Positions 18,601 to 64,000 of a DNA stretch of 64,000 bases are shown here, piece by piece. Numbering within the stretch: position 1 is the first letter of the stretch; each line of letters begins with the position of its first letter. Source of the stretch: a virus. Taxonomy: Duplodnaviria > Caudoviricetes. The notes under the pieces were generated by a model. It had not been told where the DNA came from, did no database searches, and saw only the letters and a list, made by a program, of their open reading frames with translations. Position numbers and translations under genes: made by a program. Where the stretch lies: IMG/VR virus record IMGVR_UViG_3300015608_004761, positions 1 through 64,000 of that record; one strand, written 5' to 3'.

Positions 18601-19766
18601 CGTACATCCTCGCGGGCTTCCCCGGGATGGTCTTCGACAACCTGTCGGTGGGGATGCACGCCGTGGGGCACGTGCAGAGCGTGCAGCACTCCGGGATCGT
18701 GCGGGACAAGGGCGCGCGCATGGCCTCGCAGGCGCAGCTCTCCTACTGCCGGACGATCTACGAGTTCATCGCGGACGTGCGCGCCGATGCCGTGCGCTTC
18801 GGAGGGCGCGTCACGTCCGCCCCGGCCGAGCTCATCAGCGAGATTCGCGAGGTGGTGCAGGACGAGGGGCGCGCCGAGCAGTTCTACAAGAAGCTCCTCT
18901 ACGGGGGACGGGAGAACCTCGCCGGGGCGTGCTTCCGCTGGACCGAGGCCATGGGCTACTCCGACGGCGGTCAGGTCATCCCCATCGAGATCGTGGGCGA
19001 ATCCGTCGCCGTTCAGGAGGAGCGACTCCGGGCGGCCGAGGCGGCGGGGCGCGGCGAGGGCACGGCGTCTGGATCCGAGCAGGGGCAGCCCTCGCCCGCG
19101 ACGGCCGCGCAGTCGGCGAGCGCCGGGGGCGTCTCCTCGCAGGGGCAGACCACGGTGCACACGAACCTGGACCCCAACAAGGAGCTCTCGCCCAGGCAGA
19201 ACATCTACTCCGACGCCTTCCGCAGCTACGACGTTGCCATGCGCCTCGCCGCACGCCCCGCCTGCACGCTCGACGAATACATCCGCTTCTGGCACGGTGG
19301 GAAAACCGTCGGACAGATGCAAGCCACGGGACAAGTTGGACCCATCCGCACCGATTATGCGTATCGGACGCAACTGATTCCTGAAGTAGTTGCAGAGGCC
19401 GCGACACCTACCAGTGTCCTGAGGCTGGTGTACGGAGTGACGGAACGACCTACGGCGCAGTTTTACGACTGGATCTTCAAGCTGGTTCCAGGACCGGGTC
19501 GTAACACGCAGAAGGACCGCGACGACGCGGCCGATGACGCACGAGAAGGCAACTCCAATCGTCCACGACGTGCTCAAACCGAAGAAGATCGCTTGAGGCC
19601 GCCGACGGATGAGGAACAGGGGTTCACCCGCCCACCCGCACAGATCCTTCCCACCGCACGATCTCAAGGCGTGCCGGAGACCTACCCTGACACGAGGGCC
19701 GACTGGGACACCGTGTTGGACCTCTACCGCGAGAAGGTCGTGCAGAGAGTGAGCCCGAGCCGATGA
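15651..19766 (+). CDS. Baseplate hub-like tail protein with M23 peptidase domain
   Basis: FHAGSDISAAIGTPVYA, GNMVVV, YMHF, GDVLGYVG, GAHCHLEV (HxxxD/HxH); FNPYILAGFP; 1371 aa. Confidence 0.75.
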   Translation: MAIDPTAARPASTPSDNPTYQGAWVCYINGRAVPIYAFDTTSRVWEPPTARIHLLPDVLLMRLGHEDRVPVAFFYLDHWVDPAKPDFRLLFDGEILGWSYSHAKGTRTVSFTVTAHIHIFQQLYFQYMTNIDDVVAARSPELVASSIATTPGPIYPYALYHQGLNQTAAQIEAATPRPGVTVTDVNLDAETPGATLPIQAPYELVYNAVKGCIDATIPNERRSLPMMNFFARHIRKTQFHNRWVRLPIMEDPAVLAGELGVFPIFRAARSVEALNAMQRHVASQVGNAGPVWNVFQQTLGLVYMEIGMVPNPCSVLVQLNDTSGVGNPVDGRIIGHPRYDTPLRDQRTVDAQQGPAPQAPETFRRDPPSPLRRSEEEPLFVPEEPTQRIAVVDNSERVVSTAPVGSGVRFNRVGAGGTEFGVDPLTPIRLAQYFVKPAMHFAEPPACNVIFPSMVDSWTYDENYLAQPTRIYVNDSVMTGLLRADGANREFMLHALTVAYPEEADALLHHKVNAAVGGAGSTAPTESGKNLLLWPEEYYKGPVTAKSALPAWFQFARQFSNAQAATLGAAGSGGPAVGVPPSGLARAESLMGGPAGSVSGGLAFSVARRNSQGQSYFHAGSDISAAIGTPVYAVLPGQVSEVVANFQPSGDKCGNMVVVNHPRSGPNGETVTCIYMHFQRFGEGISEGRRVNPGDVLGYVGVTNGSAPDRDAVIRAFNIPPAKALEAFNAGTQAGAERVLAPFLENRPIPSGTDLSRKPWSYTEREANPDQAARARVPHTPVPQWKILARCVAGLFHQTGGAHCHLEVIFTPPGQRIDRSPPRYVNNVLTPNNRVDAVAWLASIGVALGTNHSRAPGPSRRGRIPPATGAPAPTPDINTANLTASAPASAAPLPSAGVSPQITTVARNIPRIAPNAGAATPGAGGPGAPHTTAHEAPTTTALAPGGTAAEGDSFASLFRLYAQQEYLRQRYAQRGAGVNMRFNPYILAGFPGMVFDNLSVGMHAVGHVQSVQHSGIVRDKGARMASQAQLSYCRTIYEFIADVRADAVRFGGRVTSAPAELISEIREVVQDEGRAEQFYKKLLYGGRENLAGACFRWTEAMGYSDGGQVIPIEIVGESVAVQEERLRAAEAAGRGEGTASGSEQGQPSPATAAQSASAGGVSSQGQTTVHTNLDPNKELSPRQNIYSDAFRSYDVAMRLAARPACTLDEYIRFWHGGKTVGQMQATGQVGPIRTDYAYRTQLIPEVVAEAATPTSVLRLVYGVTERPTAQFYDWIFKLVPGPGRNTQKDRDDAADDAREGNSNRPRRAQTEEDRLRPPTDEEQGFTRPPAQILPTARSQGVPETYPDTRADWDTVLDLYREKVVQRVSPSR

Positions 19767-20467
19767 ACGAGATCAAGAGCCAGGACCTCCTGCTGTGGGA
19801 GAAGTGGAAGAAGAGCCGCTCGCCCACGGACCTCGAAGCCCTCATGCGTCATGTGGCGCCGCTCCTTCGCAGCGAGGTAAACCGCTGGAGCCGCATCGCG
19901 CCGGAGTTCCTCTTGGAGAACGAGGCCAAGCGCCTCGCGATCAAGGCGTTCGAGGACTACAACCCCAACCATGTGCCCCCCACGGCCCTCGGGACGCACG
20001 TGAAGAACCACCTCCTGAAGCTCTCCCGTACGGCGTACAGCCGCCAGTCCACGCTGACCGTGCCGGAGGCCAAGCGTCTCACCTTCAATCAGGTCCAGCG
20101 CCAGCGCACGCTCCTGGAGGACCAGACGGGCAGACCCCCGACGTTGGAGGAGCTCGCCGACCACATGCGCCTCTCGCCCGCGCGACTGCACGCGTTGCAG
20201 AACGAGGTGAGCAAGCGCGAGTACATGGAGTCCGGCGAGGGCCCCTCGTTCGTTCAGCACACCGACGACCCGGAGGTCGTGCACCTCGCGTGGCACGACA
20301 TGACGCCCGTTCAGCGGCAGATCTTCGAGATGCGCACGGGTTACAACGGCGCCAAGATCCTGCCCGGCGCCAAGATCATGCAGGAGACCGGCCTCACGCA
20401 GGGCCAGCTCTCCCACCAGATCGGCAAGATCCGCGACACCCTCGTGCGCGCCCAGAACCTACGCTAA
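19763..20467 (+). CDS. Sigma70-family RNA polymerase sigma factor (regions 2-3-4)
   Basis: AIKAFEDYNP..LGTHV (region 2), GRPPTLEELADHM (region 3), QRQIFEMR..IMQETGLTQGQLSH (region 4 HTH). Confidence 0.8.
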   Translation: MNEIKSQDLLLWEKWKKSRSPTDLEALMRHVAPLLRSEVNRWSRIAPEFLLENEAKRLAIKAFEDYNPNHVPPTALGTHVKNHLLKLSRTAYSRQSTLTVPEAKRLTFNQVQRQRTLLEDQTGRPPTLEELADHMRLSPARLHALQNEVSKREYMESGEGPSFVQHTDDPEVVHLAWHDMTPVQRQIFEMRTGYNGAKILPGAKIMQETGLTQGQLSHQIGKIRDTLVRAQNLR

Positions 20468-50919: not shown

Positions 50920-52026
50920 TCAGTCGGCTGACGAGTCCTCGTCGTCGAGGAGCGCCGCCTTCGGCAGCTCCTTGATGCCGGCGGCCTCCTCGTGGCCCCG
51001 GAGGCGGCCCTTCTCGAAGGCGATCTTCTCGGGGTCGGCGTCGCGGGCGCGCAGGTTCTTCACCCGGGTGTCGATCCAGTTGAGGACCTTGCGCTGGTTG
51101 ATGACGCCGACGTGCTTCACCTCGACCTTGTCGTAGCCGTGCTGCTTGGGCACCCGCTTGACCGGCTCGCCGCCCTCGCCCGCCCCCGCCTCGGCCTTGG
51201 CCGCCTGCTTGGCCTGCCACGCCTTGACGGCCTCCTTGAGCTGGTCCTCGTCCCAGCCCTTCTCGACGGCGCGGTTGGCGATGGCCGTCTGCGCGTCGTG
51301 GTCCTTGATCGGGCGCAGGGCGCGCGCCGCCGTGACGGTGAGCAGCCCGTCGCGCACGAGCTTCAGGACCGGCTCGGCGAGGTCGAAGATGCCGAGGTAC
51401 TGGCTCACCTTGCCGGGCGACCAGCCGACGCGGCTGGCGATCTGGTCCTGGAGCAGCCCCGAGTCCTTGAGGTTCTTCACTACGACGGCGCTGTCGTAGT
51501 GGGTCATGCCGGCGCGCGCCTCGTTCTCGAAGTAGGCGTCCTGCACCATCTCGGACCAGTGAGTGTAGTTCTTCACCTTGGCGTTGATGGTCGAGAACTT
51601 GTTGATGAGCGCGGCGCGCGTGCGGCGGCGGCCGAAGACCAGGACGTAGTAGTCCTCGCCCTTCTTGACGTTCACCCGCAGCTTCGGGTCGGCCGACACC
51701 GGCAGCGACGCGGTCTCGCCCACGTAGCGCATCTTGGTGACGAGCACCGGGGAGGTGATGCCGCCCTTGGTCTGCTCGACGAACTCGTCGATGCTCTGCG
51801 AGGTGCTGCGCACGTCGAAGATCACCAGGAGCTGCTGGGGCTTCACGTCGATCGGCCCCTCCTCGTCAGGCACCGGCTCCCAGTCCTTGAAGACGGCGGC
51901 GTAGCCCGCCTTCTCCTCAGACGCGGCGGACCCGGACGCGGCGGACTTCTTGGCCCGCTTGGACGGCGTCTCCACCGTCTCGTCCTTCTTCTTGCCCTTC
52001 TTCTCGGTCGTATCTTCGGTCGTCAT
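50920..52026 (-). CDS. ParB/Spo0J-like protein with HTH
   Basis: LVFGRRRTRAA, ENEAR, QDQIASRVGWSPGKVSQYL, GLLTVTAARAL. Confidence 0.8.
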   Translation of the reverse strand: MTTEDTTEKKGKKKDETVETPSKRAKKSAASGSAASEEKAGYAAVFKDWEPVPDEEGPIDVKPQQLLVIFDVRSTSQSIDEFVEQTKGGITSPVLVTKMRYVGETASLPVSADPKLRVNVKKGEDYYVLVFGRRRTRAALINKFSTINAKVKNYTHWSEMVQDAYFENEARAGMTHYDSAVVVKNLKDSGLLQDQIASRVGWSPGKVSQYLGIFDLAEPVLKLVRDGLLTVTAARALRPIKDHDAQTAIANRAVEKGWDEDQLKEAVKAWQAKQAAKAEAGAGEGGEPVKRVPKQHGYDKVEVKHVGVINQRKVLNWIDTRVKNLRARDADPEKIAFEKGRLRGHEEAAGIKELPKAALLDDEDSSAD

Positions 52027-52486: not shown

Positions 52487-53017
52487 TCACTCTCCCGTCA
52501 GGTACTTGTCGAGGAAGCTCTTCTCCTCGGACGCTGCCGTGCCCGCCTCGCCCCGCCGGGCGGCCTCGGCCTCGGCGTAGCCGGGGTCGACGCGGCCGAA
52601 CTCCCGCTCGACCAGACCCGTGCGGGTGCCGATCTCGCGGATGGCGACCTGACGGGGCTTCTCCAGGTCGGAGATCTCGATCGGATCGGTCAAGGGGTTC
52701 CCGCGCGCGTTCCCGCTCGACCACTTGGTGACGATGGCGCGCCCCGTGGGGCGGTCGGCGGGCGCCGGGGGCGCGGGAGGGGCCGGCGCGGGGGCCGGGG
52801 CGAAGGCCGTCGCAGACGGCGCCGGGGCGGGGGGCGCGGACGGGGCGGGAGGGGGCGGGGCAGGCCGCGCCGCCGGCCTCGGGTCGTCCACCCAGAGGTA
52901 GATCGTGCAGTTGTCGGGGACCTCGAAGTCCAGCAATACGCCGTACCCCCTCTGCTGGAGGTCCTGCTGGATCAGGGCCTTGACGTCCTCGGGACCGTAC
53001 TGAACTTGCAGCTTCAT
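52487..53017 (-). CDS. Hypothetical protein with Pro/Ala linker
   Basis: ATGA-coupled to the SNF2 gene. Confidence 0.7.
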   Translation of the reverse strand: MKLQVQYGPEDVKALIQQDLQQRGYGVLLDFEVPDNCTIYLWVDDPRPAARPAPPPPAPSAPPAPAPSATAFAPAPAPAPPAPPAPADRPTGRAIVTKWSSGNARGNPLTDPIEISDLEKPRQVAIREIGTRTGLVEREFGRVDPGYAEAEAARRGEAGTAASEEKSFLDKYLTGE

Positions 53018-55017
53018 AGCAGGCTCGGCTTTGCTACGGGGCGGTTCACTGCCGCCGCGTAGGTGCAGTTCTCCCGGAAGGGGACCGTGCCGTCAAGGGC
53101 GCACGCTTCCATGCGCGGGCAGGAGGCGCATCGGATCTTCTCGGTCATCGTGAAGGCGACCCGGTCCTTGAACCGGAGCACGCCGGCCACCATCCGGTCG
53201 AGCCCCCCGAGCCCCTCGGCGGTCAGGAGCCGGTAGCAGGTCATCTTGCGCTTCTGGCCGGGCCGGTTGTTCCTCTCGATGGCCTGCTGGTAGTCGAGCG
53301 GTGCCCACGGCAGCGAGTAGAACACCGAGTAGTTGGCGGCGGGCAGGTTGATGCCGATCCCGGCGCTCACCATCCCGACGAGCACGCGCGTCTTGGGGTC
53401 CTCTTGCACCGCGAGCTCGATCCGCTCGACGTCCTTGGTCGTGTCCCCGTCCAGGCGCTCGACCTTGACCCCGAGCTCGGCGCACACGCCCATCATGTCG
53501 TCCAGCTCGTCGTCGAAGACCCCCCAGCACAGGACCTTGTTGGTGTCGTCCTCCTCCAGGATCTGTTCGAGGAGGTCCTTGAACACCTCCCGCTTGGGGT
53601 TCTCGAAGTCGCGCAGGACCTTGCGCGGGGGCTTCTGCTGCACGACGAGGCACTTCTTGGTGTAGGGCTTGATCCGCTCCTCCACGCACACCTCCATGCG
53701 CGGGCAGGCGTCGCAGATGGTCCGGTCGGGCGCCTCGATGAGGAAGCCGGAGATCACCTGGAGGAGCTTGTTCACCAGGGCGGCCCCGTGGGGCAGGTTG
53801 AAGAGGACCTGCGCCGGGGGCGGCGCGAGGCCCGGCTCGGGGTTGTCGTCGAAGTGCGCGGCGTACGCCTCCAGCGCGGGGTCGAGCGTAGCCTGCATGG
53901 TTGATACGAGCTCGTTGTAGCGGTGCTTCTGCCGGGTCCCGAGCTCGAAGGGCACGTCCACCACGGTCATGGCCGGCAGGTCCAGGCAGTCCTTCTTCTT
54001 CATCCGCAGCGCAACCGAGTCGACGATCGCGTTCATCTCGTTCAGGTTCTTGTAGCCCGTGCGGATCACGGCGTTGTACGGGGAGCGCGTGACGTACTTG
54101 TCGACGAACTTCTCGTAGTCCATCGGGACGAGGGCGGGCGAGAGGAAGTAGAGCTGTCCGTAGAGCTTCTCGGGCGTGTCGCCCGGCGTGCCGGTTAGCG
54201 CGATGCGGCGCGGCGCGGGCACCGACAGGGCCACCACGGCCTGCGTCTGTTCGCTCTTCCAGTTGCCCAGGCGGTGCGACTCGTCGGCCACGATCACGTC
54301 GTAGCCGAGCTCCAGGAGGCGGCTCCGCTCGGGGGCGAAGATCGCCATCTTGCCGAACTGCGGGTGCTCGATCTCGGTGTTCGCCATGAGGCGCGCGCGG
54401 GCGTAGCTCACCCCCACGACCTGGGCCGACTTGGCGGCCTCCCAGGACTCCTCGGTCCCGTCGAAGTAGACGCCCTTCCACTCCCCGCGCGACACGCGCC
54501 CCGTCTCGCGCGCCCAGCCGGGGAGCACGACCGGGGGCCCGACGACGAGGGCCTTCTTGAAGGGGGCCTCGCGGGCGATCACGCGGAGGGCGTCGAGCGT
54601 CGTGCGCGTCTTGCCCGTGCCCATGTCCCACAGGAGGAACGTCCGGGCCCAGTGCCGGATGCGCGATACGCCGTACCGCTGGTACTTGAAAGGCTGGAAG
54701 GTGTCGGGGAAGAACTCGCCCGGCACGTCCGCGAGGCACGGCTCCCCCCTCGCCCAGGCGGCCTCCTCCGATTCCCAGGCGCGGTCCTTAGCCTCGATAT
54801 CGGCCGCAAGCGCCAGGGCGTCCGGCGTCCAGCGCGCGCCCACGGCCAGCTTGCGCAGGTCCCGCATTGCCCACAGGCCGAATGGGTAGTACCCGGGGAA
54901 GATCCAGGTGCCGCTGACGTACTGGGCGCCCCACGCGCGGGCGAGCGGGGACTTCTCGGGGCCGGGCGACGCGAACGCGCGTGCCGTATTGTTGAGCGTG
55001 AACGACCTGATCTCCAT
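53014..55017 (-). CDS. SNF2-family (SF2) helicase
   Basis: WDMGTGKT, VADESH, ALTGTP, GIGINL, QAIERNNRPGQ. Confidence 0.9.
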   Translation of the reverse strand: MEIRSFTLNNTARAFASPGPEKSPLARAWGAQYVSGTWIFPGYYPFGLWAMRDLRKLAVGARWTPDALALAADIEAKDRAWESEEAAWARGEPCLADVPGEFFPDTFQPFKYQRYGVSRIRHWARTFLLWDMGTGKTRTTLDALRVIAREAPFKKALVVGPPVVLPGWARETGRVSRGEWKGVYFDGTEESWEAAKSAQVVGVSYARARLMANTEIEHPQFGKMAIFAPERSRLLELGYDVIVADESHRLGNWKSEQTQAVVALSVPAPRRIALTGTPGDTPEKLYGQLYFLSPALVPMDYEKFVDKYVTRSPYNAVIRTGYKNLNEMNAIVDSVALRMKKKDCLDLPAMTVVDVPFELGTRQKHRYNELVSTMQATLDPALEAYAAHFDDNPEPGLAPPPAQVLFNLPHGAALVNKLLQVISGFLIEAPDRTICDACPRMEVCVEERIKPYTKKCLVVQQKPPRKVLRDFENPKREVFKDLLEQILEEDDTNKVLCWGVFDDELDDMMGVCAELGVKVERLDGDTTKDVERIELAVQEDPKTRVLVGMVSAGIGINLPAANYSVFYSLPWAPLDYQQAIERNNRPGQKRKMTCYRLLTAEGLGGLDRMVAGVLRFKDRVAFTMTEKIRCASCPRMEACALDGTVPFRENCTYAAAVNRPVAKPSLL

Positions 55018-55037: not shown

Positions 55038-56756
55038 ATGTACGAACTAGACGCGATGGGGCCGTACCAGAACGGCGGCGGCGCCTACGGGCACCCGAAC
55101 CCCCAGTACGACTACCTGAGCGGGTTCACGCCCAGGAAGCTCAAGGACCTGATCCGGCAAGCCGAGTACATCGGCTTCAACTCGGCGCACATCTACGGCG
55201 TCGTCCGCAAGTTCGGCGAGTACCCCATCACGGAGCTGGAGTACGAGACGGCCTCGGACTCCGAGCGCGAGCGGCACGAGAAGCTCTTCGACAACGAGCT
55301 GCGCTTCAAGGGGTTCCTCACGCTGGTCTCCTTCGATGTGTGGCTCACGGGCAACAGCTTCGTGAGCATGTACGAGCCGATCAAGCGGGACCTGCGGTGT
55401 CCGTCCTGCAAGATCCCCGAGGACGTCGCGGCGGCGGACTACACCTTCCACCTGGACCGCCTGGAGTTCCGGTTCAACTGCCGCAACTGCGGTCTGCGCA
55501 ACCAGATCGCCGAGGTCGTCGACCAGCCACTGCGCGAGCCGAGCCGCATCAAGCTCCGACGCTGGGACCCGAAGCTCATCGACATCGACTCGAACCTCAT
55601 CACCGGGGAGGACGAGTACTACTACACGATCCCGCGCGCCTTCGTCGCCGAGGTTCGCGCGGGCAACAAGCTGAAGATCAACCACACGCCGATGGAGTTC
55701 CTCGCGGCGATGAGGGACCGGAAGATCTTCAAGTTCGCCCCCGACGCCATCTACCACATGCGTATGCCGGGCCCGGCCGGGGAGCAGGGCCAGTGGGGCT
55801 TCCCTCCCATCACGGCGGCCATCAAGCTCTTCCTCTTCGCGGCCGTGCTCAGGCGCGCCAACGAGGCGATCGCCATGGAGCACATCACGCCCTTCCGCGT
55901 GATGCACCCCACGCAAGCGAGCAGCCAGGGCGACCCGCTCACGACCATCAACCTCGGGCGCTGGCGGCAGGAGCTGGAAGGGAACCTCCGCGCCTTCCGC
56001 AAGGACCCCCTGCGCGTCATGTTCTCCCCGATCCCCATCGGCGTGCAGAACATCGGCGGCGAGGGACGCACCCTCCTGACGCTCGGCGAGCTGGAGCAGG
56101 CCGAGAAGAACATCGTCCTCTCGCTCGGCGTCCCGATGGAGTTCCTCACCGGGGGCCTCGGGCAGACGCGCGGCGACGTGACGCTCCGCATGATCGAGAA
56201 CCAGCTCCGTACCCACATCGAGAACCTGAACGGGCTCGCGCAGTGGACCGAGCGGCGCGCGGCGGGGTTCCTCAAGTGGGCCTCGATCCCCGTGCGCCTC
56301 CAAGACTTCAAGATGACGGACGACGTGGACGCCAAGCAGTTCCGTCTCCAGATGTGGACGCAAGGGAGGGTGAGCGACACGACGATGGCGCAGTCGCTCA
56401 ACATGGACCTCAAGAACGAGATGAAGCTCATCAAGCAGGAGCAGCTCGACCGCCAGCGCAACGAGAGCGAGACCCAGCTCGCCCTCCAGCGCCAACAGCA
56501 GGCCCTGTCGCTCACCTCGCAGCAGCGCGCCATGCAGGCGCAGGGCGGCGTGGCCTACGACCCGCAGCAGGTGCTGGCCGCCAACGCCCCCATCGCCCAG
56601 GAGCTCGGCGAGATGGACGAGGGCACCCGCCGGAGCCGCCTCGACGCCTTGCAGGGCGAGGACCCGGTCGCGTACGCTGTTGTCAAGATGCTCCTCGAAC
56701 AGAAGCAACAGAACGACACGGCGCAGGCCAAGCAGCAGTCGCGAGGGGGTGGGTGA
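55038..56756 (+). CDS. Putative portal protein
   Basis: 572 aa; GNSFVS, RWDPKLI, IYHMR..WGFPPI, IVLSLGVPMEFL; Gln-rich tail; CxxC..CxxC insert. Confidence 0.6.
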   Translation: MYELDAMGPYQNGGGAYGHPNPQYDYLSGFTPRKLKDLIRQAEYIGFNSAHIYGVVRKFGEYPITELEYETASDSERERHEKLFDNELRFKGFLTLVSFDVWLTGNSFVSMYEPIKRDLRCPSCKIPEDVAAADYTFHLDRLEFRFNCRNCGLRNQIAEVVDQPLREPSRIKLRRWDPKLIDIDSNLITGEDEYYYTIPRAFVAEVRAGNKLKINHTPMEFLAAMRDRKIFKFAPDAIYHMRMPGPAGEQGQWGFPPITAAIKLFLFAAVLRRANEAIAMEHITPFRVMHPTQASSQGDPLTTINLGRWRQELEGNLRAFRKDPLRVMFSPIPIGVQNIGGEGRTLLTLGELEQAEKNIVLSLGVPMEFLTGGLGQTRGDVTLRMIENQLRTHIENLNGLAQWTERRAAGFLKWASIPVRLQDFKMTDDVDAKQFRLQMWTQGRVSDTTMAQSLNMDLKNEMKLIKQEQLDRQRNESETQLALQRQQQALSLTSQQRAMQAQGGVAYDPQQVLAANAPIAQELGEMDEGTRRSRLDALQGEDPVAYAVVKMLLEQKQQNDTAQAKQQSRGGG

Positions 56757-57196: not shown

Positions 57197-57239
57197 GCGC
57201 ACCTCCTTCCGCATCCTTGTACCCTAACGAGAGCCCATT

Positions 57240-60200
57240 ATGAGCGAGCCGACGCCCATCCTCACCGACGCCTCCCACATCCGCGAGCGGATTCGGGAGA
57301 AAGCGATCCAGACCGCGTACGCCGTATTCCCCCTGGAGGCCCAGGGGCGGAAGCTGGAGATCGAGGATGTCCACGTCCGCAACGAGCGTTACAGCCCGGT
57401 GCGAGAGGCGCGCGCGCTCATGACCGACGGGACGCTGTCCGAGGCGATGCGCGGGACGCTCGTTCTGCGCGACAAGGACGGCACGGTGCTCGACCGGGCC
57501 AAGAACTTCACCATCGCGCACCTGCCGTACTTCACCGACCGCCACACGGTGATCGCGAACGGCAACGAGTACCAGATCGCGAACCAGCTCCGCAGGAAGC
57601 CCGGGGTCTACACGGCGCGCGCGGACAACGGGGAGCTCCGGGCCATCTTCAACCTGGGCCGTGGGAAGAACTTCGACCTCGGGTTCGAGCCCAACAAGGG
57701 CACCTTCCACCTCGCCTACGGCACGAGCAACATCCCGCTTTACCCAGTGCTGCGGGCGCTGGGCGTCTCACACCAGACGATCGCCGACCAGTGGGGAAAG
57801 GGTGTCGCGGACGCGAACCACACCGCCCACGGCCATCAGACCGAGAAGGCCGTGGCGAGTCTCTACGCCAAGGTCGAGCACCCGGTGGTGATGAACCCGA
57901 ACCTGCCGCACGCCGAGAAGGTGACGGCGCTCCAGAGGAAGTACGACCAATCGACGCTCGACCCGCGCGTGACCGAGGCGACGCTCGGGGTGGCCTGGGA
58001 TAAGGTGACGCCGCAGGCGCTCATCGGTGCGGCCAAGAAGGTGCTGGCCGTCCACAACGACAAGGCGCAGGTCGACGACACCGACTCGCTCACCTTCAAG
58101 ACTTTCCACTCGATCGACGACTTCATCGCCGAGCGCATGCGCCTGACGGCCCGCGCGTGGGTCCCCGCCGCCAAGCGCGCCTTGAACGGCAAGACCAACA
58201 TCCGCGAAGCCCTGCGCCCGGCGCCCTTTTCGGACGGGCTGCGCAAGTGGGTCACGACCTCGTCGCTCTCGGCCGTGCCAACGGGCATCAACCCGCTGGA
58301 GATGCTCGACCACGCCGTCAAGGTGACCTCGCTCGGCGAGGGCGGGATCCCCAGCGATCGCGCGATCCCGCTGGACGCGCGCATGATCCACAACACACAC
58401 ATCGGCGCGCTCGACCCGATTCGCACGCCGGAGTCGAACCATTCCGGGGTCGACATCCGGGCGACCCTGGCCGCGCACCGCGACAAGGAGGGCAACCTCT
58501 ACACCGTCGTCAAGAACGTCAAGACCGGCAAGGAGGAGTTCCTCCGGTCGGGCGAGCTGCGCAAGCACGTCCTGGCCTTCCCCGGCGAGGACCTGCGCGG
58601 GCACGTGGACGCCTTCGTCGGCGGCAAGGTCGAGCGGGTGCCCGGTGATAAGGTCACCCACCAGCTCCTGCACACCGCCCACACCTACTCGCCCGCGACG
58701 ACGCTGATCCCCATGATCCACTCGATCCAAGGCAACCGCGCCATCATGGGGTCCAAGATGGGCACCCAGGCGCTGCCGCTGCTGGAGCGCGAGGCGCCGT
58801 ACGTCCAGGTCCGCTCGCACCTGCCGGGCGGAGAGAGCTTCGAGACCGTCTACGGCCACATGTTCGTGCCGCGCGCGACGGTGAGCGGGACGGTGAAGAA
58901 GATCGAGGACGGCTGGATCTACATCAAGCCGGACAAGGAGCACGAGAAGAAGTCCGAAGTTCGCCGTGAGGATGACGACGTCGACGCGGACGGGGTGAAG
59001 GTCGCCGCCGAGGACGACGGGCTCGTCAAGGTGCCCTACCAGACGCTCTTCCCGTTCCCCTCCAAGACCTACCTGCACCACGAGCTCTCGGTGAAGCCGG
59101 GCGACAAGGTGCAGGAGGGTCAGCGCCTGGGCGAGTCGAACTACACCCGCAAAGGCACCCTCGCCCTCGGCAAGAATCTGCTCGTGGCCTACATGCCGTA
59201 CTACGGCCTGAACTCCAACGACGCCGTCGTGATCTCGGAGGGTTGCGCGAAGAAGCTGACCTCTGAGCACATGTACCGCGAGGTCTACGCGCTGAACCCG
59301 CAGATCGAGCTCTCGCGCGAGAAGCACCGGATGTACTTCGGCAACAAGTACACCCGCGAGCAGTACGGCGTACTCGACGAGACGGGCGTCGTGAAGAAGG
59401 GCTCGCGAGTCCACCCGAAGGACCTCCTGGTCGCCGGGCTCACCAAGACCCAGGTGCTGGGCACGGACGCGCTCCTCGGGCGCATCTCCAAGAGCCTCGC
59501 CAAGCCCTACCAGGAGGTGACGCTCTCCTGGACCCACGGCACCCCGGGCGAGGTCGTGGACGTGGTGCGCACGGCCACGCAGATCGCCATCCTCGTGCGC
59601 ACCCACGAGCAGATGCAGGTCGGCGACAAGCTCTGCTACGACGAGCAGACGGAGGTTCTAACCGACCACGGGTGGAAGCACTTCGACTTGCTGGACCCCT
59701 TGACGGATCGTGTGGCGAGCCTTGAAGGCGGGGCCCTCCGTTACGTGGAACCCGAAGCGTACCATCGGTACGCGCGCGGGGGTCGCATGTACGCCGTCTC
59801 GTCGCAACAGCTCGACCTGTTCGTAACGGACCACCACGGGATGTACGTTCAGCGGCGCGGCGAGACCGAGTTCGCCTTGCGGCCGGCGGAAGACATCGCC
59901 GGCCAGCGGGTTCGATACAAGAAGGACGCGGACTGGCAGGGCGAGACGCCCGACCACGTGGTCTTCCCTTCGCTCACCGTCGCCGCAGGGCAGGGGGGGC
60001 GTGGGTCTCGCGTGCTGACCCCGCTGCGCATGCGAACGGACGCCTACGCCATGCTGCTGGGCGCGTACCTGTCGGAGGGGAACCTCGTCGATCAACCCGA
60101 GAGCGGCAGCTACGGGATCGACATCACGCAGATCAAGGAGCCCAACCGGGCGCGACTGCTCACGGAGCTCCGCCGCCTGGGGCTCAAGTTCAACGAGCAC

Positions 60201-62816
60201 GGGCGCGGAACGAAGGTACGCCTCTACTCGAAGCAGATCCTGGAACACTTCCGCCAGTTCGGGCACAGCCACGAGAAGTTCATCCCCCCGTACGTTTTCG
60301 ATTGGGACCGGAACACGCTGCGGATCCTTTTCGACTGGCTGGTGTGGGGAGACGGGAGCGTGGCCAACGGCCGTCCCGTCTCGTACACGACGACGTCACC
60401 GCGTCTCGCCGACGACGTACAGCGGCTGTGCCTTCACGTCGGATTCGCGGGCAACGTGAAGCGGAAGAAGCACCACCCGCGTCAAACGATCAAGGGCGAA
60501 GAGTACGATTGCCGCCCATGCTTCGACGTCCGAATCGTGACGACCAAGCTGCATCCCCAGGTCAACCACGGACACGCAACGTCGCAGAAGGCTCAACGCG
60601 AAGGGTTCGTTCCCGATTACGAATCCCCAGTCTTCTGCGTAACGGTACCTTCGGGGGTGATCTACGTCCGGCGCAACGGAAAGGGGGTGTGGTCCGGCAA
60701 CTCGGGTCGCTACGGGAACAAGGGCGTCGTCGCCAAGATCCTGCCGGACCACGAGATGGTTCAGGACTCGAAGGGCCGCCCCATCGACCTCCTGCTCACC
60801 TCGGCGGGCGTCGTCTCCCGCATCAACCCCGCGCAGGTCATCGAGACGGCCGTGGGCAAGGTCGTCGAGAAGACGGGCAAGCCCATCGTCTTCGACAACA
60901 ACGCGCGCGTCAACGCCGTCGAGTGGGCCAAGGGGCTACTGCGCGAGCACGGCGTCTCGGACAAGGAGCACGTCTACGACCCGCTCCAGAAGCGACGCAT
61001 CGAAGGCCCGGACGGCAAGGGCGTGCTCGTCGGCCGGCAGTTCATCTACAAGCTCTTCAAGTCGACGGACACGAACTTCGCCGCCCACGGCGTGGGCCCC
61101 TACGACTTGAACCAGCAGCCGCTCAAGACCGGCGGCGACGACTCGGCCAAGGGCCTCGGCAAGATGGAGTTCGACGCGCTCATCGCCCACAACGCGCGCA
61201 ACTTCCTGCGCGAGGCGGCGACGGTGAAGGGTCAGAAGAACGACGAGTTCTGGAAGGCCCTCCAGCTCGGCATGCCGCTGCCCGCACCGAAGAGCCCCTT
61301 CGCGTTCCAGAAGTTCGTCGGGATGCTCGAAGGGGCAGGGCTCCGCGTGGACAAGCGCGGCTCGAAGATGAAGCTCCTGCCCATGACGGACCGGGACGTC
61401 CTCGCCCGGTCGCGCGGGCCCATCGAGAACTCCAAGACCCTCATCGCCAAGAACCTGAAGCCCGAGACCGGGGGGCTGTTCGACCCGCGCCTGACGGGCG
61501 GCCCCCAAGGCACGCTCTACGCGCACATCGACCTGCACGAGCCGATCCCGAGCCCCGTCTTCCAGGAGCCCGTGCGGCGCCTGCTGGGCCTGACGGGCAA
61601 GGAGTTCGACCGGAAGCTCGCCGAGCACGGCGGGCAATGGTTCCACGCCGAGCTCAAGGCCATGGACGTGGGGGCCAAGATGCGCGCGCTCCAGGGCCAG
61701 CTCGCGAAGGCCAAGGGCGCCGAGCTCAACGACGTCGTCAAGCAGATCAAGTACCTGAAGGCCCTCCAGGCCGAGAAGATGGCACCCCACGAGGCGTACA
61801 TGATCTCCAAGGTGCCGGTGATCCCGCCCGTGTTCCGCCCGATCGTGACCCAGCCGGGCGACAGCTCGCAGGTCTCGATCGGGGACGCGAACAAGCTCTA
61901 CGGGCACCTCATGGACTCCAACGACACCCTGAAGGCGACGGCCCTGGAGAGCGACCGGGGTAAGCACCGCCAGCAGGTCTTCAACGCCGTGGCCGCGCTC
62001 TACGGCACCGAGGACGTGGCGAACGACGAGCTGCGCGGGCAGTCCGTCAAGGGGTTCCTCTCGAACATCGCCGGAGTGGGCACGCCGAAGGGCGGGTTCT
62101 TCCAGCGCAAGCTCATGCGGCGCACGCAGGACGTGTCGGGTCGCGGCACGGCCGTCCCGGACGCCAACCTCGGCATGGACCACGTCGGCATGCCCGAGCC
62201 GATGCTCTGGGGCATGTACGACAAGATGATCGTCGCGCGGCTCGTGCGGCAGGGCTACCCGGCGCTGGAGGCGCGCGAGCGCGTGACCAAGCGGGACCAC
62301 GTGGCGCGCGAAGCGATGCTGGCCGAGACGCGCGAGCGCCCGGTGCTCATCAACCGGGCGCCGACGCTCCACCGATGGTCGATCGTGGCGGCCTACCCAG
62401 TGCCCGTCCAGGGGAAGACCATCCGCGTGAACCCCTTCATCGAGAAGGGCATGAACCTCGACTACGACGGCGACACCTTGCAGGTCCACGCGCCCATCAC
62501 GCACGACGCGATCGAGGACGCCCGCAAGATGACCCTGTCGCAGATGCTCCTGGCCGACCAGACGCACTCACGCCTCATGGCCTTCCCGCAGCACGAGGCG
62601 ATCATCGGCTTCACCCACGCCTCCAAGGCCGTGGCCTCGGGCGCGAAGCCCCGCGAGTTCGCCTCGGCCGACGAGGCGGTGAAGGCGTGGCGCCGGGGAG
62701 AGATCAAGCTGAACGATCCCGTGACGCTCAAAGGGACCAAGACCGCCTCCGAGCAGGACCCAGACACGAACCTCACCCGCCTGCTATCCTGGCTGGAGAG
62801 CCAACCCGATGGATGA
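57240..62816 (+). CDS. rpoB-rpoC: Phage multi-subunit RNA polymerase: beta fused to N-terminal half of beta', intein-containing
   Basis: Beta motifs NGNEY..QLRRKPG, NPL..H..SLGEGG, TPE, NRAIMGSKM, GKNLLVAYMPYYGLNSND, GDK|SGRYGNKG, GKME; beta' motifs KPETGGLFD, HIDL, PVIPPVFRP, INRAPTLHR, NLDYDGD. Confidence 0.95.
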   Translation: MSEPTPILTDASHIRERIREKAIQTAYAVFPLEAQGRKLEIEDVHVRNERYSPVREARALMTDGTLSEAMRGTLVLRDKDGTVLDRAKNFTIAHLPYFTDRHTVIANGNEYQIANQLRRKPGVYTARADNGELRAIFNLGRGKNFDLGFEPNKGTFHLAYGTSNIPLYPVLRALGVSHQTIADQWGKGVADANHTAHGHQTEKAVASLYAKVEHPVVMNPNLPHAEKVTALQRKYDQSTLDPRVTEATLGVAWDKVTPQALIGAAKKVLAVHNDKAQVDDTDSLTFKTFHSIDDFIAERMRLTARAWVPAAKRALNGKTNIREALRPAPFSDGLRKWVTTSSLSAVPTGINPLEMLDHAVKVTSLGEGGIPSDRAIPLDARMIHNTHIGALDPIRTPESNHSGVDIRATLAAHRDKEGNLYTVVKNVKTGKEEFLRSGELRKHVLAFPGEDLRGHVDAFVGGKVERVPGDKVTHQLLHTAHTYSPATTLIPMIHSIQGNRAIMGSKMGTQALPLLEREAPYVQVRSHLPGGESFETVYGHMFVPRATVSGTVKKIEDGWIYIKPDKEHEKKSEVRREDDDVDADGVKVAAEDDGLVKVPYQTLFPFPSKTYLHHELSVKPGDKVQEGQRLGESNYTRKGTLALGKNLLVAYMPYYGLNSNDAVVISEGCAKKLTSEHMYREVYALNPQIELSREKHRMYFGNKYTREQYGVLDETGVVKKGSRVHPKDLLVAGLTKTQVLGTDALLGRISKSLAKPYQEVTLSWTHGTPGEVVDVVRTATQIAILVRTHEQMQVGDKLCYDEQTEVLTDHGWKHFDLLDPLTDRVASLEGGALRYVEPEAYHRYARGGRMYAVSSQQLDLFVTDHHGMYVQRRGETEFALRPAEDIAGQRVRYKKDADWQGETPDHVVFPSLTVAAGQGGRGSRVLTPLRMRTDAYAMLLGAYLSEGNLVDQPESGSYGIDITQIKEPNRARLLTELRRLGLKFNEHGRGTKVRLYSKQILEHFRQFGHSHEKFIPPYVFDWDRNTLRILFDWLVWGDGSVANGRPVSYTTTSPRLADDVQRLCLHVGFAGNVKRKKHHPRQTIKGEEYDCRPCFDVRIVTTKLHPQVNHGHATSQKAQREGFVPDYESPVFCVTVPSGVIYVRRNGKGVWSGNSGRYGNKGVVAKILPDHEMVQDSKGRPIDLLLTSAGVVSRINPAQVIETAVGKVVEKTGKPIVFDNNARVNAVEWAKGLLREHGVSDKEHVYDPLQKRRIEGPDGKGVLVGRQFIYKLFKSTDTNFAAHGVGPYDLNQQPLKTGGDDSAKGLGKMEFDALIAHNARNFLREAATVKGQKNDEFWKALQLGMPLPAPKSPFAFQKFVGMLEGAGLRVDKRGSKMKLLPMTDRDVLARSRGPIENSKTLIAKNLKPETGGLFDPRLTGGPQGTLYAHIDLHEPIPSPVFQEPVRRLLGLTGKEFDRKLAEHGGQWFHAELKAMDVGAKMRALQGQLAKAKGAELNDVVKQIKYLKALQAEKMAPHEAYMISKVPVIPPVFRPIVTQPGDSSQVSIGDANKLYGHLMDSNDTLKATALESDRGKHRQQVFNAVAALYGTEDVANDELRGQSVKGFLSNIAGVGTPKGGFFQRKLMRRTQDVSGRGTAVPDANLGMDHVGMPEPMLWGMYDKMIVARLVRQGYPALEARERVTKRDHVAREAMLAETRERPVLINRAPTLHRWSIVAAYPVPVQGKTIRVNPFIEKGMNLDYDGDTLQVHAPITHDAIEDARKMTLSQMLLADQTHSRLMAFPQHEAIIGFTHASKAVASGAKPREFASADEAVKAWRRGEIKLNDPVTLKGTKTASEQDPDTNLTRLLSWLESQPDG
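59634..60701 (+). mobile_element. Intein with LAGLIDADG endonuclease in RNAP beta (356 aa)
   Basis: CYDEQTEVLT...VWSGN followed by Ser; LLGAYLSEG and LVWGDG motifs. Confidence 0.92.
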
Positions 62817-63291
62817 CTTCCCTGCCGACATCGACGGAATGCTGAAGGCCGCCGAGGACCCGGAGCCGGAGCCCGACCCCGTGCCGGGCCTCGTGCGCAA
62901 GCTCCTCTCCGTCAAGTACGCCGTACTGCTGGCGTACGTGAGCTACGGCGACCAGCTCCGGGGCGCGAACCGCGACGGGCTCTACGAGCACTTCCAGGAG
63001 CACGTGAAGGACGAGCGCCGCTCGATCTACGAGTTGAACCGTCACCTCGCCTCGCGGGGGGAGGTGCACGTGCCGCACAACGTCACCATCCCCGAGGTCG
63101 AGCTCGGGGGCCCGGTGCCGCTCCTCGGCGTGCTCCTCCAGTTCGAGGAGGCCGCCCTCGAAGCGTGGCGCGAGCTCTTCCGCGCGATCCCGCCGAACAA
63201 GAACGTGGGGCTCTCGGGCTTCGCGCAGAACGGCGCGCAAGCCCAGCTCGCCCACGTCGAGGACCTGCGTCGCTGGGGGGCCCGGTCGTGA
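62809..63291 (+). CDS. Ferritin-like (bacterioferritin/Dps fold) protein
   Basis: Four-helix pattern LYEHFQEHVKDE..EL..HL, FEEAALEAW, QLAHVEDL. Confidence 0.6.
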   Translation: MDDFPADIDGMLKAAEDPEPEPDPVPGLVRKLLSVKYAVLLAYVSYGDQLRGANRDGLYEHFQEHVKDERRSIYELNRHLASRGEVHVPHNVTIPEVELGGPVPLLGVLLQFEEAALEAWRELFRAIPPNKNVGLSGFAQNGAQAQLAHVEDLRRWGARS

Positions 63292-63506
63292 AGCGTGTCG
63301 AGGTGTCCATGGGCCCGATCGTCCGGGGCGACGCGGGGAAGTTCTCCGGCACGCGCCACGCGTTCACGCAGGCCGAGGAGGTGCTCAAGAAGTACGCGCT
63401 CCTGGCGGACAAGGGCAACCCGGCGGACTTCCTCGCCAAGCTCTTCCGCTCGAACCACTTCGGCTACGACGCGAAGACGAACCCCCTCAACCGGCGATAC
63501 CCGTGA
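63288..63506 (+). CDS. Hypothetical protein
   Basis: GTG 63288; GTGA overlaps at both ends. Confidence 0.6.
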   Translation: MKRVEVSMGPIVRGDAGKFSGTRHAFTQAEEVLKKYALLADKGNPADFLAKLFRSNHFGYDAKTNPLNRRYP

Positions 63507-64000
63507 CAACCACCGTCGGTCACCTCCTCATCAACGCGGCCCTCCCTGACACGCACCAGATCTCGGGGCCCGTGACCAACAAGTTCCTCCACGACCACGT
63601 GGTGGACTTGGCCCGCTCGGACCCGCAGAAGTACGTGCGCACCGTCACGGACCTGAAGCGGCGCGGGGACGAGATCGCCACGCTCGAAGGGATCTCGGTG
63701 GGCCTGGACGACATCCGGCCCGACTACGCCGCGCGCGACGCGATCGTGAAGCCCGCCGTCGCCGCCCTGCGCAAGGCCACCTCGACGGGCGAGAAGGAGC
63801 GGGTCATCACCGAGGCGCAGAGCCGGATGCTGGCGTACACCAAGACCCACCCGGGCTCGATGACGCACATGGCCCTCTCGGGCGCGCGCGGCAACCCAGC
63901 GCAGCTCATGAAGATCGTGGGGACGCCGCTCGCGACTACGCACCCGCGCGAGGGCCTCGTGCCGCGCGTCCTGGAGCGGTCGTACTCCGAGGGGCTCTCC
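63503..64000 (+). CDS. rpoC: RNA polymerase beta' C-terminal subunit, 5' part (runs off the window)
   Basis: Own translation, not in the ORF track: MTTTVGHLLINAALP..DLKRRGDEIATLEGISVGLDDI..MALSGARGNPAQL..RSYSEGLS. Confidence 0.9.
   Translation, partial: MTTTVGHLLINAALPDTHQISGPVTNKFLHDHVVDLARSDPQKYVRTVTDLKRRGDEIATLEGISVGLDDIRPDYAARDAIVKPAVAALRKATSTGEKERVITEAQSRMLAYTKTHPGSMTHMALSGARGNPAQLMKIVGTPLATTHPREGLVPRVLERSYSEGLS

What the first reader, a model, noticed from the sequence alone, without database searches (positions are those of the whole stretch)
57240..64000. Re-partitioned phage RNA polymerase: beta::beta'-N fusion plus separate beta'-C, lacking the beta' N-terminal Zn domain
Seen: one ORF runs through all beta motifs and continues into beta' (KPETGGLFDPRLTG, PVIPPVFRP, NRAPTLHR, catalytic NLDYDGD), stopping shortly after PQHEAIIG. 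The rest of beta' (TTVG.., GISVGLDD, SGARG, SYSEGL) restarts at 63503 after two unrelated small genes. The Cys-containing Zn domain is missing between GLFD..G and HIDL. Known: cellular enzymes either fuse whole beta-beta' (Helicobacter, Wolbachia) or split beta' (cyanobacterial RpoC1/C2 at a nearby point), and cellular-like RNAPs are reported in some tailed phages (mReC). Inference: both catalytic barrels sit on one chain, which could allow assembly without host alpha. No alpha gene is in this window.
Basis: partly seen in the sequence, partly recalled or inferred. Interest (0 to 1): 0.85.

Follow-up and report, generated by a model that had tools for sequence, protein, structure and literature searches.

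The report
Fused, re-split phage RNA polymerase
This uncultured high-GC phage encodes a bacterial-type RNA polymerase as two chains (all of beta joined to the first part of beta-prime, with the rest of beta-prime separate), a layout shared by hundreds of phages, including the cultured Salmonella phage Arash, but not described in the papers I could search.

Summary

**What is there**
- ORF 57240-62816 (1858 aa) is a complete RpoB homologue. It is interrupted by a 356-aa LAGLIDADG intein, so the spliced form is 1502 aa.
- RpoB runs without a linker into RpoC from about residue 14 through the catalytic NLDYDGD.
- The 32-residue beta' Zn-binding domain is deleted.
- beta'C is a separate 599-aa gene starting at 63503. 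It begins at the cyanobacterial RpoC1|RpoC2 split point.
- A ferritin-like gene and a 65-aa ORF lie between the two RNAP genes, with overlapping stop and start codons at two of the three junctions.

**Why it is not an artefact**
- The same layout occurs in Salmonella phage Arash (gp206/gp216), three Vibrio phages, 15 IMG/VR loci and more than 160 metagenome proteins.
- A 211-aa junction probe finds 998 clusters at E<=1e-10.

**New here**
- Deeper relatives carry the whole beta::beta' on one chain, also without the Zn domain. The split is therefore probably derived, on a tentative rooting.
- No alpha or omega homologue was found in the complete Arash and D69 genomes. Each has a single RNAP set plus phage sigma factors.
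- Arash virion proteomics detected gp206, gp216 and the sigma that matches window gene 19763-20467.

**Reading**
A sigma-dependent, alpha-less phage RNAP, probably packaged in the virion. The scan found this layout before on other DNA. I found no paper describing it.

The parts
57240..62816 (+). Gene for the beta::beta'N chain (1858 aa precursor, 1502 aa after intein splicing)
   Evidence: A TACCCT -10-like hexamer lies at 57220-57225, 14 nt before the ATG.
57240..59633 (+). beta, N-extein (residues 1-798). Includes the flap-tip-like helix TDALLGRISKSL and ends in GDKL of the beta active-site barrel.
   Evidence: Alignment to E. coli RpoB. The E. coli lineage inserts 225-355, 938-1049 and 1152-1189 are absent. 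Rifampicin-pocket residues are changed (Q513A, F514V, D516T, R529K, S531T).
58998..59009 (+). K-V-A-A (residues 587-590) at the end of a charged insert, just before the conserved LVKVPY block. Candidate head-protease site.
   Evidence: A K-x-A-[ASEGD] motif lies within the 75 residues before the FPFPSK anchor in 92 of 109 relatives. The insert maps to E. coli beta ~740. That it is a cleavage site is inferred.
59634..60701 (+). Intein, 356 aa (Cys799 to Asn1154, with +1 Ser1155), carrying a LAGLIDADG homing endonuclease
   Evidence: Absent from 11 aligned relatives, which read GDKL|AGRYGNKG. Pfam LAGLIDADG_3. The Rpb2_6 profile match is broken at position 228|228 exactly here.
60702..61364 (+). 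beta, C-extein (residues 1155-1375). Contains GRYGNKG with the two catalytic Lys and runs to the very C-terminus of beta.
   Evidence: Aligns to the last residues of E. coli beta.
61365..62816 (+). beta' N-part (residues 1376-1858), from the equivalent of Thermus beta' residue 7 (E. coli ~14) to E. coli ~571. No linker separates it from beta.
   Evidence: phmmer alignments to solved beta' chains, MAFFT and BLASTP to E. coli RpoC 173-581.
61500..61523 (+). Site of the missing beta' Zn-binding domain (between G1424 and T1425)
   Evidence: A 32-column gap against E. coli residues ~67-98, with no Cys, in all family members including the full fusions.
62454..62474 (+). Catalytic NLDYDGD (three Asp kept)
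   Evidence: In the family census NLDYDGD is the commonest form (96 proteins), with N[ALM]D[YF]DGD variants.
62739..62750 (+). K-T-A-S (residues 1834-1837) before a 21-aa acidic tail. Candidate head-protease site.
   Evidence: K-x-A occurs in the last 60 aa of 129 of 188 split-type relatives, against 28% of background windows. Its position is fixed after the GEIKLxD block. Arash and D69 proteins end at this point. Function is inferred.
62809..63291 (+). Ferritin-like four-helix-bundle protein (160 aa). Its ATG overlaps the RNAP stop codon (ATGGATGA).
   Evidence: Pfam Ferritin E 4.4e-6. AF2 pLDDT 89.9. Foldseek TM 0.78 to bacterioferritin. Present between the RNAP genes in 9 of 15 related loci.
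63309..63506 (+). 65-aa ORF with a GAGG ribosome-binding site. Its stop overlaps the beta'C start (GTGA).
   Evidence: Relatives in 5 of 15 loci. No family hit. No similarity to the equally placed D69 ORF.
63503..64000 (+). beta'C gene (continues to 65302 of the contig; 599 aa). Contains the bridge-helix region, the second Zn site, the trigger-loop helix and Rpb1_5.
   Evidence: It starts at E. coli T572 'TTVG'.
19763..20467 (+). Sigma-70-family factor (234 aa) inside the tail/baseplate block. Homologue of Arash gp10, the sigma found in Arash virions.
   Evidence: Pfam Sigma70_r3. BLASTP 27% identity, E 2e-24, to the 234-aa Arash ORF. Virion detection: PMC10585845.
50149..50916 (+). Second sigma factor, RpoD/RpoS-like (255 aa)
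   Evidence: Pfam Sigma70_r2. NCBIfam rpoS/rpoD models match but score under their cut-offs.
55038..56756 (+). Portal protein homologue directly upstream of the RNAP gene
   Evidence: 31% identity to Arash gp204 'portal protein'. Upstream of the RNAP in all 15 related loci.

Best explanation
These two genes encode the catalytic core of a phage-encoded, bacterial-type multisubunit RNA polymerase. The enzyme belongs to a large, so far unnamed family whose cultured members are Salmonella phage Arash (gp206 + gp216) and Vibrio phages D69, D148 and D181.

Shown:
- Chain 1 is a whole minimal beta, which needs intein splicing to restore the GDK-GRxGNKG active-site strand. It is fused head-to-tail to beta' up to just past the Mg-binding barrel.
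- Chain 2 is the rest of beta' (bridge helix, second Zn site, trigger loop).
- The beta' Zn-binding domain is missing. No alpha or omega homologue was detected.
- The phage encodes two sigma-70-family factors.
- The genes sit between the portal gene and the head-maturation protease gene.
- Related phages have a single RNAP set.
- Deeper relatives carry all of beta::beta' on one chain.

Inferred:
- The ancestor was a single-chain, Zn-domain-less beta::beta'. It was later cut at the same permissive loop that is split in cyanobacteria, plastids and phiKZ-type phages.
- The core assembles without alpha and binds the phage sigmas through the retained flap tip and clamp helices.
- The core is insensitive to rifampicin.
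- It is packaged into the capsid, as Arash proteomics suggests, so that it transcribes early genes on entry and, with the second sigma, later genes.
- In this high-GC clade it is trimmed by the head protease at two conserved K-x-A sites.
For: Architecture and homology.

Intein.

Recurrence:
- Arash and the Vibrio phages
- 15 IMG/VR loci, all with the same split and the portal gene upstream
- 120 listed homologues, each carrying both the Rpb2_6 and Rpb1_2 domains
- The junction probe finds 998 clusters at E<=1e-10, and the top 150 all match as one stretch across the junction

One-chain relatives and tree.

No alpha or omega hit in the complete Arash and D69 genomes, with all 14 control genomes positive. 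One RNAP set only.

Sigmas.

Virion detection of gp206 (most spectra), gp216, sigma gp10 and helicase gp217 in Arash: PMC10585845.

Head-module context: portal homologue and protease phrog_18299 at contig 74813-76606.

K-x-A evidence: enrichment in head genes and position-conserved sites in the RNAP chain.

Rifampicin-pocket substitutions.
Against: - No enzyme of this family has been assayed, so activity, sigma use and alpha-independence are all inferred.
- The Arash authors note that abundant enzymes may simply co-purify with virions.
- Absence of alpha rests on Pfam profiles. A divergent assembly subunit, or use of host alpha, is not excluded.
- The bridge-helix region is unusually divergent.
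- The RNAP chain as a whole is not enriched in K-x-A (z 0.9). Arash and D69 lack both candidate sites.
- The tree was made with FastTree and rooted on E. coli alone, so the polarity (fusion first, split later) is tentative.
- The window's contig is only ~58% complete.
Confidence: 0.72

Rival explanations
1. The enzyme is a non-virion RNAP. It is made after infection, uses host alpha2 (and omega) as its assembly platform, and transcribes only middle and late genes. Its detection in Arash particles is carry-over of an abundant protein.
For: The Arash paper itself raises co-purification. The beta and beta' modules are close enough to bacterial ones (E 1e-64 and 1e-39 to solved bacterial chains) that alpha contact surfaces could persist. 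A Helicobacter-type fused beta-beta' works together with alpha in cells (from my own knowledge of that literature, not checked here).
Against: gp206 gave the most spectra of any Arash virion protein, and its partner chain and one sigma were also detected. The genes sit between portal and head protease in every locus examined. The family has position-conserved candidate protease sites and a removable tail. Hosts range from Salmonella and Vibrio to a 70%-GC organism, so a conserved fit to host alpha would be demanding.
Confidence: 0.2
2. The apparent split is bridged. The region between the two genes is a mobile insertion (intron or split intein) that is removed, so the mature enzyme is a single beta::beta' chain like that of its deeper relatives.
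For: Deeper relatives are single-chain. The family is heavily colonised by inteins, including one at NxDxDGD in L022 and L025. The content between the genes varies.
Against: Chain 1 ends in a stop codon that overlaps the start of the next gene. beta'C begins directly at the homologue of E. coli T572, with no IntC-like segment, and chain 1 has only a ~25-aa non-intein tail. In Arash the two genes are 4.7 kb apart, with nine genes on the opposite strand between them. The intervening ORFs have coding-type GC3 of 0.94.
Confidence: 0.03
3. The feature is an assembly or frameshift artefact, or a piece of host rpoBC carried on a chimeric contig.
For: None was found.
Against: The identical protein is on record from 9 contigs. 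The same junction and the same split occur in four sequenced isolates and in hundreds of metagenome proteins. All NCBIfam rpoB and rpoC models score far below their cut-offs (289 against 896 bits). The flanking genes are phage genes.
Confidence: 0.01

Closest known systems
Salmonella phage Arash gp206 (1525 aa) + gp216 (606 aa), OQ632216.1 (PMC10585845); Vibrio phages D69, D148 and D181
   Same: Same family and same architecture: beta::beta'N on one chain, separate beta'C, no Zn domain, portal gene directly upstream, a 234-aa sigma homologue, a second sigma, and one RNAP set. Identity is 31-36%.
   Different: No intein. No charged beta insert and no C-terminal tail with K-x-A. Nine opposite-strand genes lie between the two Arash RNAP genes. 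The paper annotates the proteins simply as beta and beta' and does not mention the fusion.
Single-chain beta::beta' relatives in metagenomes (e.g. the 2041-aa protein P0177 on a 159-kb contig with TubZ)
   Same: Same beta/beta' junction and same Zn-domain deletion. The beta'C part follows seamlessly.
   Different: beta' is not split. These proteins form the basal grade of the tree.
Fused rpoB-rpoC of Helicobacter and Wolbachia (NCBIfam PRK09603, PRK14844)
   Same: The beta C-terminus is joined to the beta' N-terminus on one polypeptide.
   Different: The cellular fusions keep the Zn domain, the whole of beta', alpha and omega. The phage protein scores no better on the fused models than on plain rpoB (286 and 273 bits against 289 bits, all far below cut-off), so the phage fusion looks independent.
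Cyanobacterial and plastid RpoC1 (gamma) / RpoC2 split
   Same: Same split point. beta'C residue 114 aligns to rpoC2_cyan profile position 114, and chain 1 ends near position 580 of the 619-position rpoC1_cyan profile.
   Different: In cyanobacteria, gamma is a free subunit that is not fused to beta. The Zn domain, alpha and omega are present.
phiKZ- and AR9-type jumbo-phage virion and non-virion RNAPs (PMC7598289)
   Same: Phage-encoded beta/beta' homologues without alpha or omega. beta' is split after the catalytic barrel at the cyanobacterial site. One enzyme is virion-packaged.
   Different: Those enzymes consist of 4-5 separate fragments, come as two sets per genome, have no sigma-70 homologues and are far more divergent. 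Here there are two chains, one set and two sigma-70-family genes.
mReC (Weinheimer & Aylward 2020, PMC7481178)
   Same: Tailed phages from metagenomes that encode bacterial-like beta and beta'.
   Different: The mReC rows seen list separate beta (1361-1563 aa) and beta' (1006-1038 aa) proteins. The screen required NADxDGD and at least 800 aa for each subunit. Here the motif is NLDYDGD and it lies on the beta-bearing chain. The sample IDs I could check were not listed among the mReC.

Membership tests
Bacterial-type multisubunit RNAP core (beta/beta') | beta domains, including the DPBB with two catalytic Lys (GRxGNKG) | tested here: met
   Pfam Rpb2_2, Rpb2_3 and Rpb2_6. K1065 and K1073 equivalents are conserved once the intein is removed.
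Bacterial-type multisubunit RNAP core (beta/beta') | beta' DPBB with NxDxDGD; bridge helix; trigger loop; second Zn site | tested here: met
   NLDYDGD. Equivalents of Cys814, 888, 895 and 898, and the trigger-loop helix with the His936 equivalent, are present. The bridge-helix region aligns but is divergent.
Bacterial-type multisubunit RNAP core (beta/beta') | beta' N-terminal Zn-binding domain (four Cys) | tested here: not met
   A 32-residue gap with no Cys, family-wide.
Bacterial-type multisubunit RNAP core (beta/beta') | alpha dimer and omega encoded or used | tested here: not met
   No PF01000, PF01193 or PF01192 hit in the window's contig or in the complete Arash and D69 genomes, while all 14 control genomes were positive. 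Use of host alpha cannot be tested here.
Bacterial-type multisubunit RNAP core (beta/beta') | Orthology to cellular rpoB/rpoC (NCBIfam equivalog cut-offs) | tested here: not met
   Best scores are 289 bits against a cut-off of 896 (rpoB) and 172 against 963 (rpoC).
Arash-like fused/split phage RNAP family | beta::beta'N on one chain, beta'C separate, split before 'TTVG' | tested here: met
Arash-like fused/split phage RNAP family | Synteny (SNF2-type helicase, portal, RNAP) and a gp10-like sigma | tested here: met
Arash-like fused/split phage RNAP family | Presence in virions | not testable with these tools
   Shown by mass spectrometry for Arash only.
mReC | Separate beta and beta' proteins of at least 800 aa, with NADxDGD in beta' | tested here: not met
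Class 1 intein with LAGLIDADG endonuclease | Cys1, block B TxxH, C-terminal Asn, +1 Ser/Thr/Cys, endonuclease domain, insertion in a conserved site | tested here: met
   C799, TDHH, N1154, S1155 and Pfam LAGLIDADG_3. The insertion lies inside GDKL|SGRYGNKG. The penultimate residue is Gly, not His. Splicing activity was not tested.
phiKZ-type jumbo-phage RNAPs | beta and beta' each in two or more fragments; two sets per genome; no sigma-70 homologue | tested here: not met
   PMC7598289.

The most novel reading that the evidence does not exclude
This family is a minimal, self-sufficient transcription machine. It is a sigma-70-dependent bacterial-type RNAP that needs neither alpha, omega nor the beta' Zn domain, because both catalytic barrels are tethered on one chain. 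A single enzyme is packaged into the capsid and, in this clade, re-cut there by the head protease at K-x-A sites. With two phage sigmas it runs the whole infection independently of the host polymerase.
Probability: 0.4. Interest if true: 0.8.

Novelty: new variant of a known kind. Interest (0 to 1): 0.66.

Why it matters
All cellular RNAPs need an alpha-like assembly platform. The only known exceptions are the highly divergent, sigma-less jumbo-phage enzymes.

Here the enzyme is still clearly bacterial in sequence and still paired with sigma-70-type factors, yet it has dropped alpha, omega and the Zn domain. That makes two questions directly testable:
- what tethering the two large subunits can replace;
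- what the Zn domain is needed for.

Cultured models on laboratory strains already exist (Arash on Salmonella Typhimurium ATCC 14028, and the Vibrio phages).

The family is large, with hundreds of 50%-identity clusters. It also offers a natural series from one-chain to two-chain forms, and perhaps to protease-cut forms, for studying how RNAP subunit boundaries evolve. Public records annotate the large chain only as 'beta subunit' or 'hypothetical protein'.

Tried and rejected
I relied on recurrence across independent assemblies instead.
- mReC membership by contig ID: six IMG sample IDs of related loci were looked up in the mReC supplements. Only one ID appeared, and only among the 'IMGVR_reference' rows, which have no mReC RNAP. 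The rows I saw show a different architecture. I did not read the full list.
- Literature: five searches for a described beta::beta'N phage fusion found nothing. Three reviews checked (PMC7598289, PMC7824862, PMC13282480) do not describe it. The library covers only open-access papers and bioRxiv preprints.
- The 65-aa ORF as a conserved small subunit: there is no similarity to the equally placed 65-aa ORF of D69, and it is present in only 5 of 15 loci. Left as unknown.
- The ferritin-like protein as an RNAP subunit: its fold is an ordinary ferritin/bacterioferritin bundle with conserved His and Glu. There is no evidence that it binds the polymerase.
- PHROGs gave no hit for the portal homologue or for most head genes.
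- The record behind L026, which carries a full fusion, is not held, so its alpha and sigma content could not be searched.
- Split-intein, intron and artefact readings were rejected (see the rival explanations).
- No complex prediction was run. The core exceeds the size limit, and a pass would only reflect likeness to solved bacterial RNAPs.
Full report
**1. The observation**

The window is ~70% GC. It lies at 1-64000 of a 99.9-kb viral contig that CheckV rates as ~58% complete.

A single ORF runs from 57240 to 62816 on the + strand and encodes 1858 aa. Pfam places these domains on it:
- Rpb2 domains 2, 3 and 6 (beta)
- a LAGLIDADG domain
- Rpb1 domains 1 and 2 (beta')

phmmer against solved structures matches bacterial beta (Thermus, E 9e-64) over the first two thirds. 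It matches bacterial beta' (E ~1e-37, or 1e-39 for the C-terminal part searched alone) over the last quarter.

Alignment with eleven relatives shows that residues 799-1154 are an insertion unique to this protein. It begins with Cys, ends with Asn and is followed by Ser. It sits inside the beta active-site strand GDKL|SGRYGNKG. This is a class-1 intein with a homing endonuclease. The Pfam Rpb2_6 match on the DNA is broken at the same profile position on either side of it.

**2. The junction and the missing Zn domain**

The beta part aligns to the last residue of E. coli beta. The next residues (KMKLLPMTD, from residue 1376) align to Thermus beta' residues 7-51, which is E. coli ~14 onward. There is no linker.

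Between the GGLFD block and HIDL, E. coli has about 32 residues carrying the four Zn-binding Cys. This protein and all 21 relatives aligned have a gap there and no Cys.

The beta module is minimal. The E. coli inserts 225-355, 938-1049 and 1152-1189 are absent. The module keeps a flap-tip-like helix. Rifampicin-contact positions are replaced (Q513A, F514V, D516T, R529K, S531T), so I infer insensitivity to rifampicin.

**3. The split**

Chain 1 ends about 68 residues after PQHEAIIG. Its stop codon overlaps the ATG of a 160-aa gene (ATGGATGA). A 65-aa ORF with its own ribosome-binding site follows. The stop of that ORF overlaps the GTG of beta'C (GTGA).

beta'C is 599 aa (63503-65302 on the contig) and begins at E. 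coli beta' T572 'TTVG'. It keeps the following:
- the second Zn site
- the trigger-loop helix
- Rpb1_5

It lacks SI3. Against the cyanobacterial NCBIfam models, beta'C residue 114 aligns to rpoC2 profile position 114, and chain 1 ends near position 580 of the 619-position rpoC1 profile. The cut is therefore at the RpoC1|RpoC2 site. PMC7598289 reports that phiKZ- and AR9-type enzymes share this site too.

**4. Not an artefact, and not unique**

- tblastn against cultured phages finds the same one-chain arrangement in Salmonella phage Arash (gp206, 1525 aa) and Vibrio phages D69, D148 and D181. Each has a separate ~606-aa beta'C gene and the portal gene directly upstream.
- The metagenome protein collection returns 120 listed homologues at 60-89% identity over the region searched. 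Each carries both the Rpb2_6 and Rpb1_2 domains on one chain of 1042-2682 aa (1457 aa upward for complete chains). Most of the length variation appears to come from differing intein loads. The window's exact protein is on record from 9 contigs.
- In 15 IMG/VR loci chain 1 stops at the same point. In the 14 loci with enough downstream sequence, beta'C follows 0.6-2.4 kb downstream. The portal gene is always upstream. Two loci carry an extra intein at the NxDxDGD motif.
- A 211-aa probe spanning the junction finds 998 clusters (50% identity) at E<=1e-10 and 411 at E<=1e-30. The best 150 each match as one stretch across the junction.

**5. New: one-chain relatives**

Of the 264 family proteins fetched, 47 also contain the beta'C region on the same polypeptide, directly after beta'N. 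Without inteins these are ~2010-2080 aa. They share the Zn-domain deletion. One of them lies on a 159-kb contig that also carries a TubZ-like gene.

I built a FastTree of 76 rows rooted on E. coli beta + beta'(1-571). The one-chain forms are a basal grade, and 47 of 48 split forms, including Arash and D69, are one nested clade (support 99). Two changes of state are needed, against about 22 in shuffles.

My reading is that fusion and Zn-domain loss came first and the beta' cut came later. The single distant outgroup and the fast method make the polarity tentative.

**6. Partners and context**

Six-frame Pfam searches find no alpha (PF01000, PF01193) and no omega (PF01192) in this contig or in the complete Arash and D69 genomes. 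All 14 control genomes score. Each of these phage genomes has a single beta barrel and a single beta' barrel, unlike phiKZ-type phages.

All three encode sigma-70-family proteins. In the window:
- 19763-20467 has Sigma70_r3 and is 27% identical (E 2e-24) to the 234-aa Arash ORF at the position of gp10.
- 50149-50916 is RpoD/RpoS-like.

The Arash paper (PMC10585845) reports virion mass spectrometry. gp206 gave the most spectra of any protein, and gp216, sigma gp10 and helicase gp217 were also detected. The authors suggest early transcription but also allow for co-purification.

Here the RNAP genes lie between the portal homologue and a head-maturation protease (phrog_18299, contig 74813-76606). 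The rest of the window carries tail and baseplate, DNA polymerase, ribonucleotide reductase and helicase genes.

**7. Candidate processing sites**

I followed a lead from earlier notes of this scan. K-x-A-[ASEGD] is strongly over-represented in the head genes just downstream of the RNAP (z 3.4-6.6), including the protease itself. The RNAP chain is not enriched overall, but it has two position-conserved sites:
- KVAA (587-590), at the end of a variable charged insert before LVKVPY. A K-x-A-[ASEGD] motif is present in that stretch in 92 of 109 relatives.
- KTAS (1834-1837), before an acidic tail. K-x-A occurs in the last 60 residues of 129 of 188 split-type relatives, against 28% of background windows.

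Arash and D69 have neither the insert nor the tail, and their chains end exactly where the second site would cut. This fits trimming inside the capsid, but it is an inference.

**8. The two genes in between**

The 160-aa protein folds confidently (pLDDT 89.9) as a four-helix bundle most similar to bacterioferritin (TM 0.78). It has invariant His and Glu residues. It lies between the RNAP genes in 9 of 15 related loci. The 65-aa ORF has no family and does not resemble the equally placed D69 ORF. Nothing ties either gene to the polymerase except the shared operon.

**9. Comparison and verdict**

The enzyme works like a bacterial core plus sigma. It fails three tests of the cellular kind:
- the Zn domain is absent;
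- alpha and omega were not found;
- it does not reach the NCBIfam equivalog scores.

It is a member of the Arash-like family. It differs from the Helicobacter and Wolbachia fusions, which are whole beta-beta' chains that keep the Zn domain and work with alpha. It differs from phiKZ and AR9, which have more fragments, two sets and no sigma. It differs from the mReC as published, which have separate beta and beta' chains.

I found no paper that describes the beta::beta'N layout or the one-chain relatives. This scan has met the same layout before on other genomes, and a follow-up there reached the same conclusions. The finding is real and well supported. It is a new variant of a known kind, not a one-off.

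Noticed in passing
window 62809-63291: A ferritin/bacterioferritin-like four-helix-bundle gene lies in the same operon as the RNAP genes. Invariant His and Glu residues suggest a di-metal site. It is conserved at this position in 9 of 15 related loci. Its role in a phage is unknown.
   Followed up: partly
contig 66029-77971 (beyond the window; L004 4029-15971) and window 40915-44334: K-x-A-[ASEGD] is 3-8 times over-represented in head-module proteins, including the head protease. Unexpectedly, it is also over-represented in the DNA polymerase (11 observed against 3.1 expected, z 4.7).
   Followed up: partly
P0001 residues ~565-590 (window 58930-59009) and relatives: The beta insert site (E. 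coli beta ~740) holds inserts of very different length in relatives. The inserts are often bracketed by two K-x-A sites, as if they were excisable cargo. The precomputed Pfam lists of some relatives also include PF18823, PF13238 or PF00719, but I did not map where on the chain those domains lie.
   Followed up: partly
L022 7767-9247; L025 6993-8413: A second intein is inserted at or next to the catalytic NxDxDGD motif in some relatives. Family chain lengths reach 3258 aa, apparently from multiple inteins.
   Followed up: no
L026 (logan SRR26786789 contig, 159 kb): A relative with the full one-chain beta::beta' lies near TubZ-like tubulin, MoxR-type AAA, VWA and LigD_N/RNA-ligase genes, and is followed by a 1287-aa protein and a large multi-glycosyltransferase.
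   Followed up: no
window 53014-55017 (-): An SNF2-type helicase gene is divergent from the portal gene. The position is conserved across the family, and the Arash counterparts gp197 and gp217 were detected in virions. It recalls the RNAP-linked SWI2/SNF2 helicase noted for jumbo phages (PMC7824862).
   Followed up: partly
window 57220-57225: A TACCCT (TAnnnT) hexamer lies 14 nt upstream of the RNAP ATG. It matches the promoter-like signature that another first-stage note reported before other rightward genes of this phage.
   Followed up: no
window 50920-52026 (-): A ParB-like gene (HTH_ParB) converges on the RpoD-like sigma gene.
   Followed up: no
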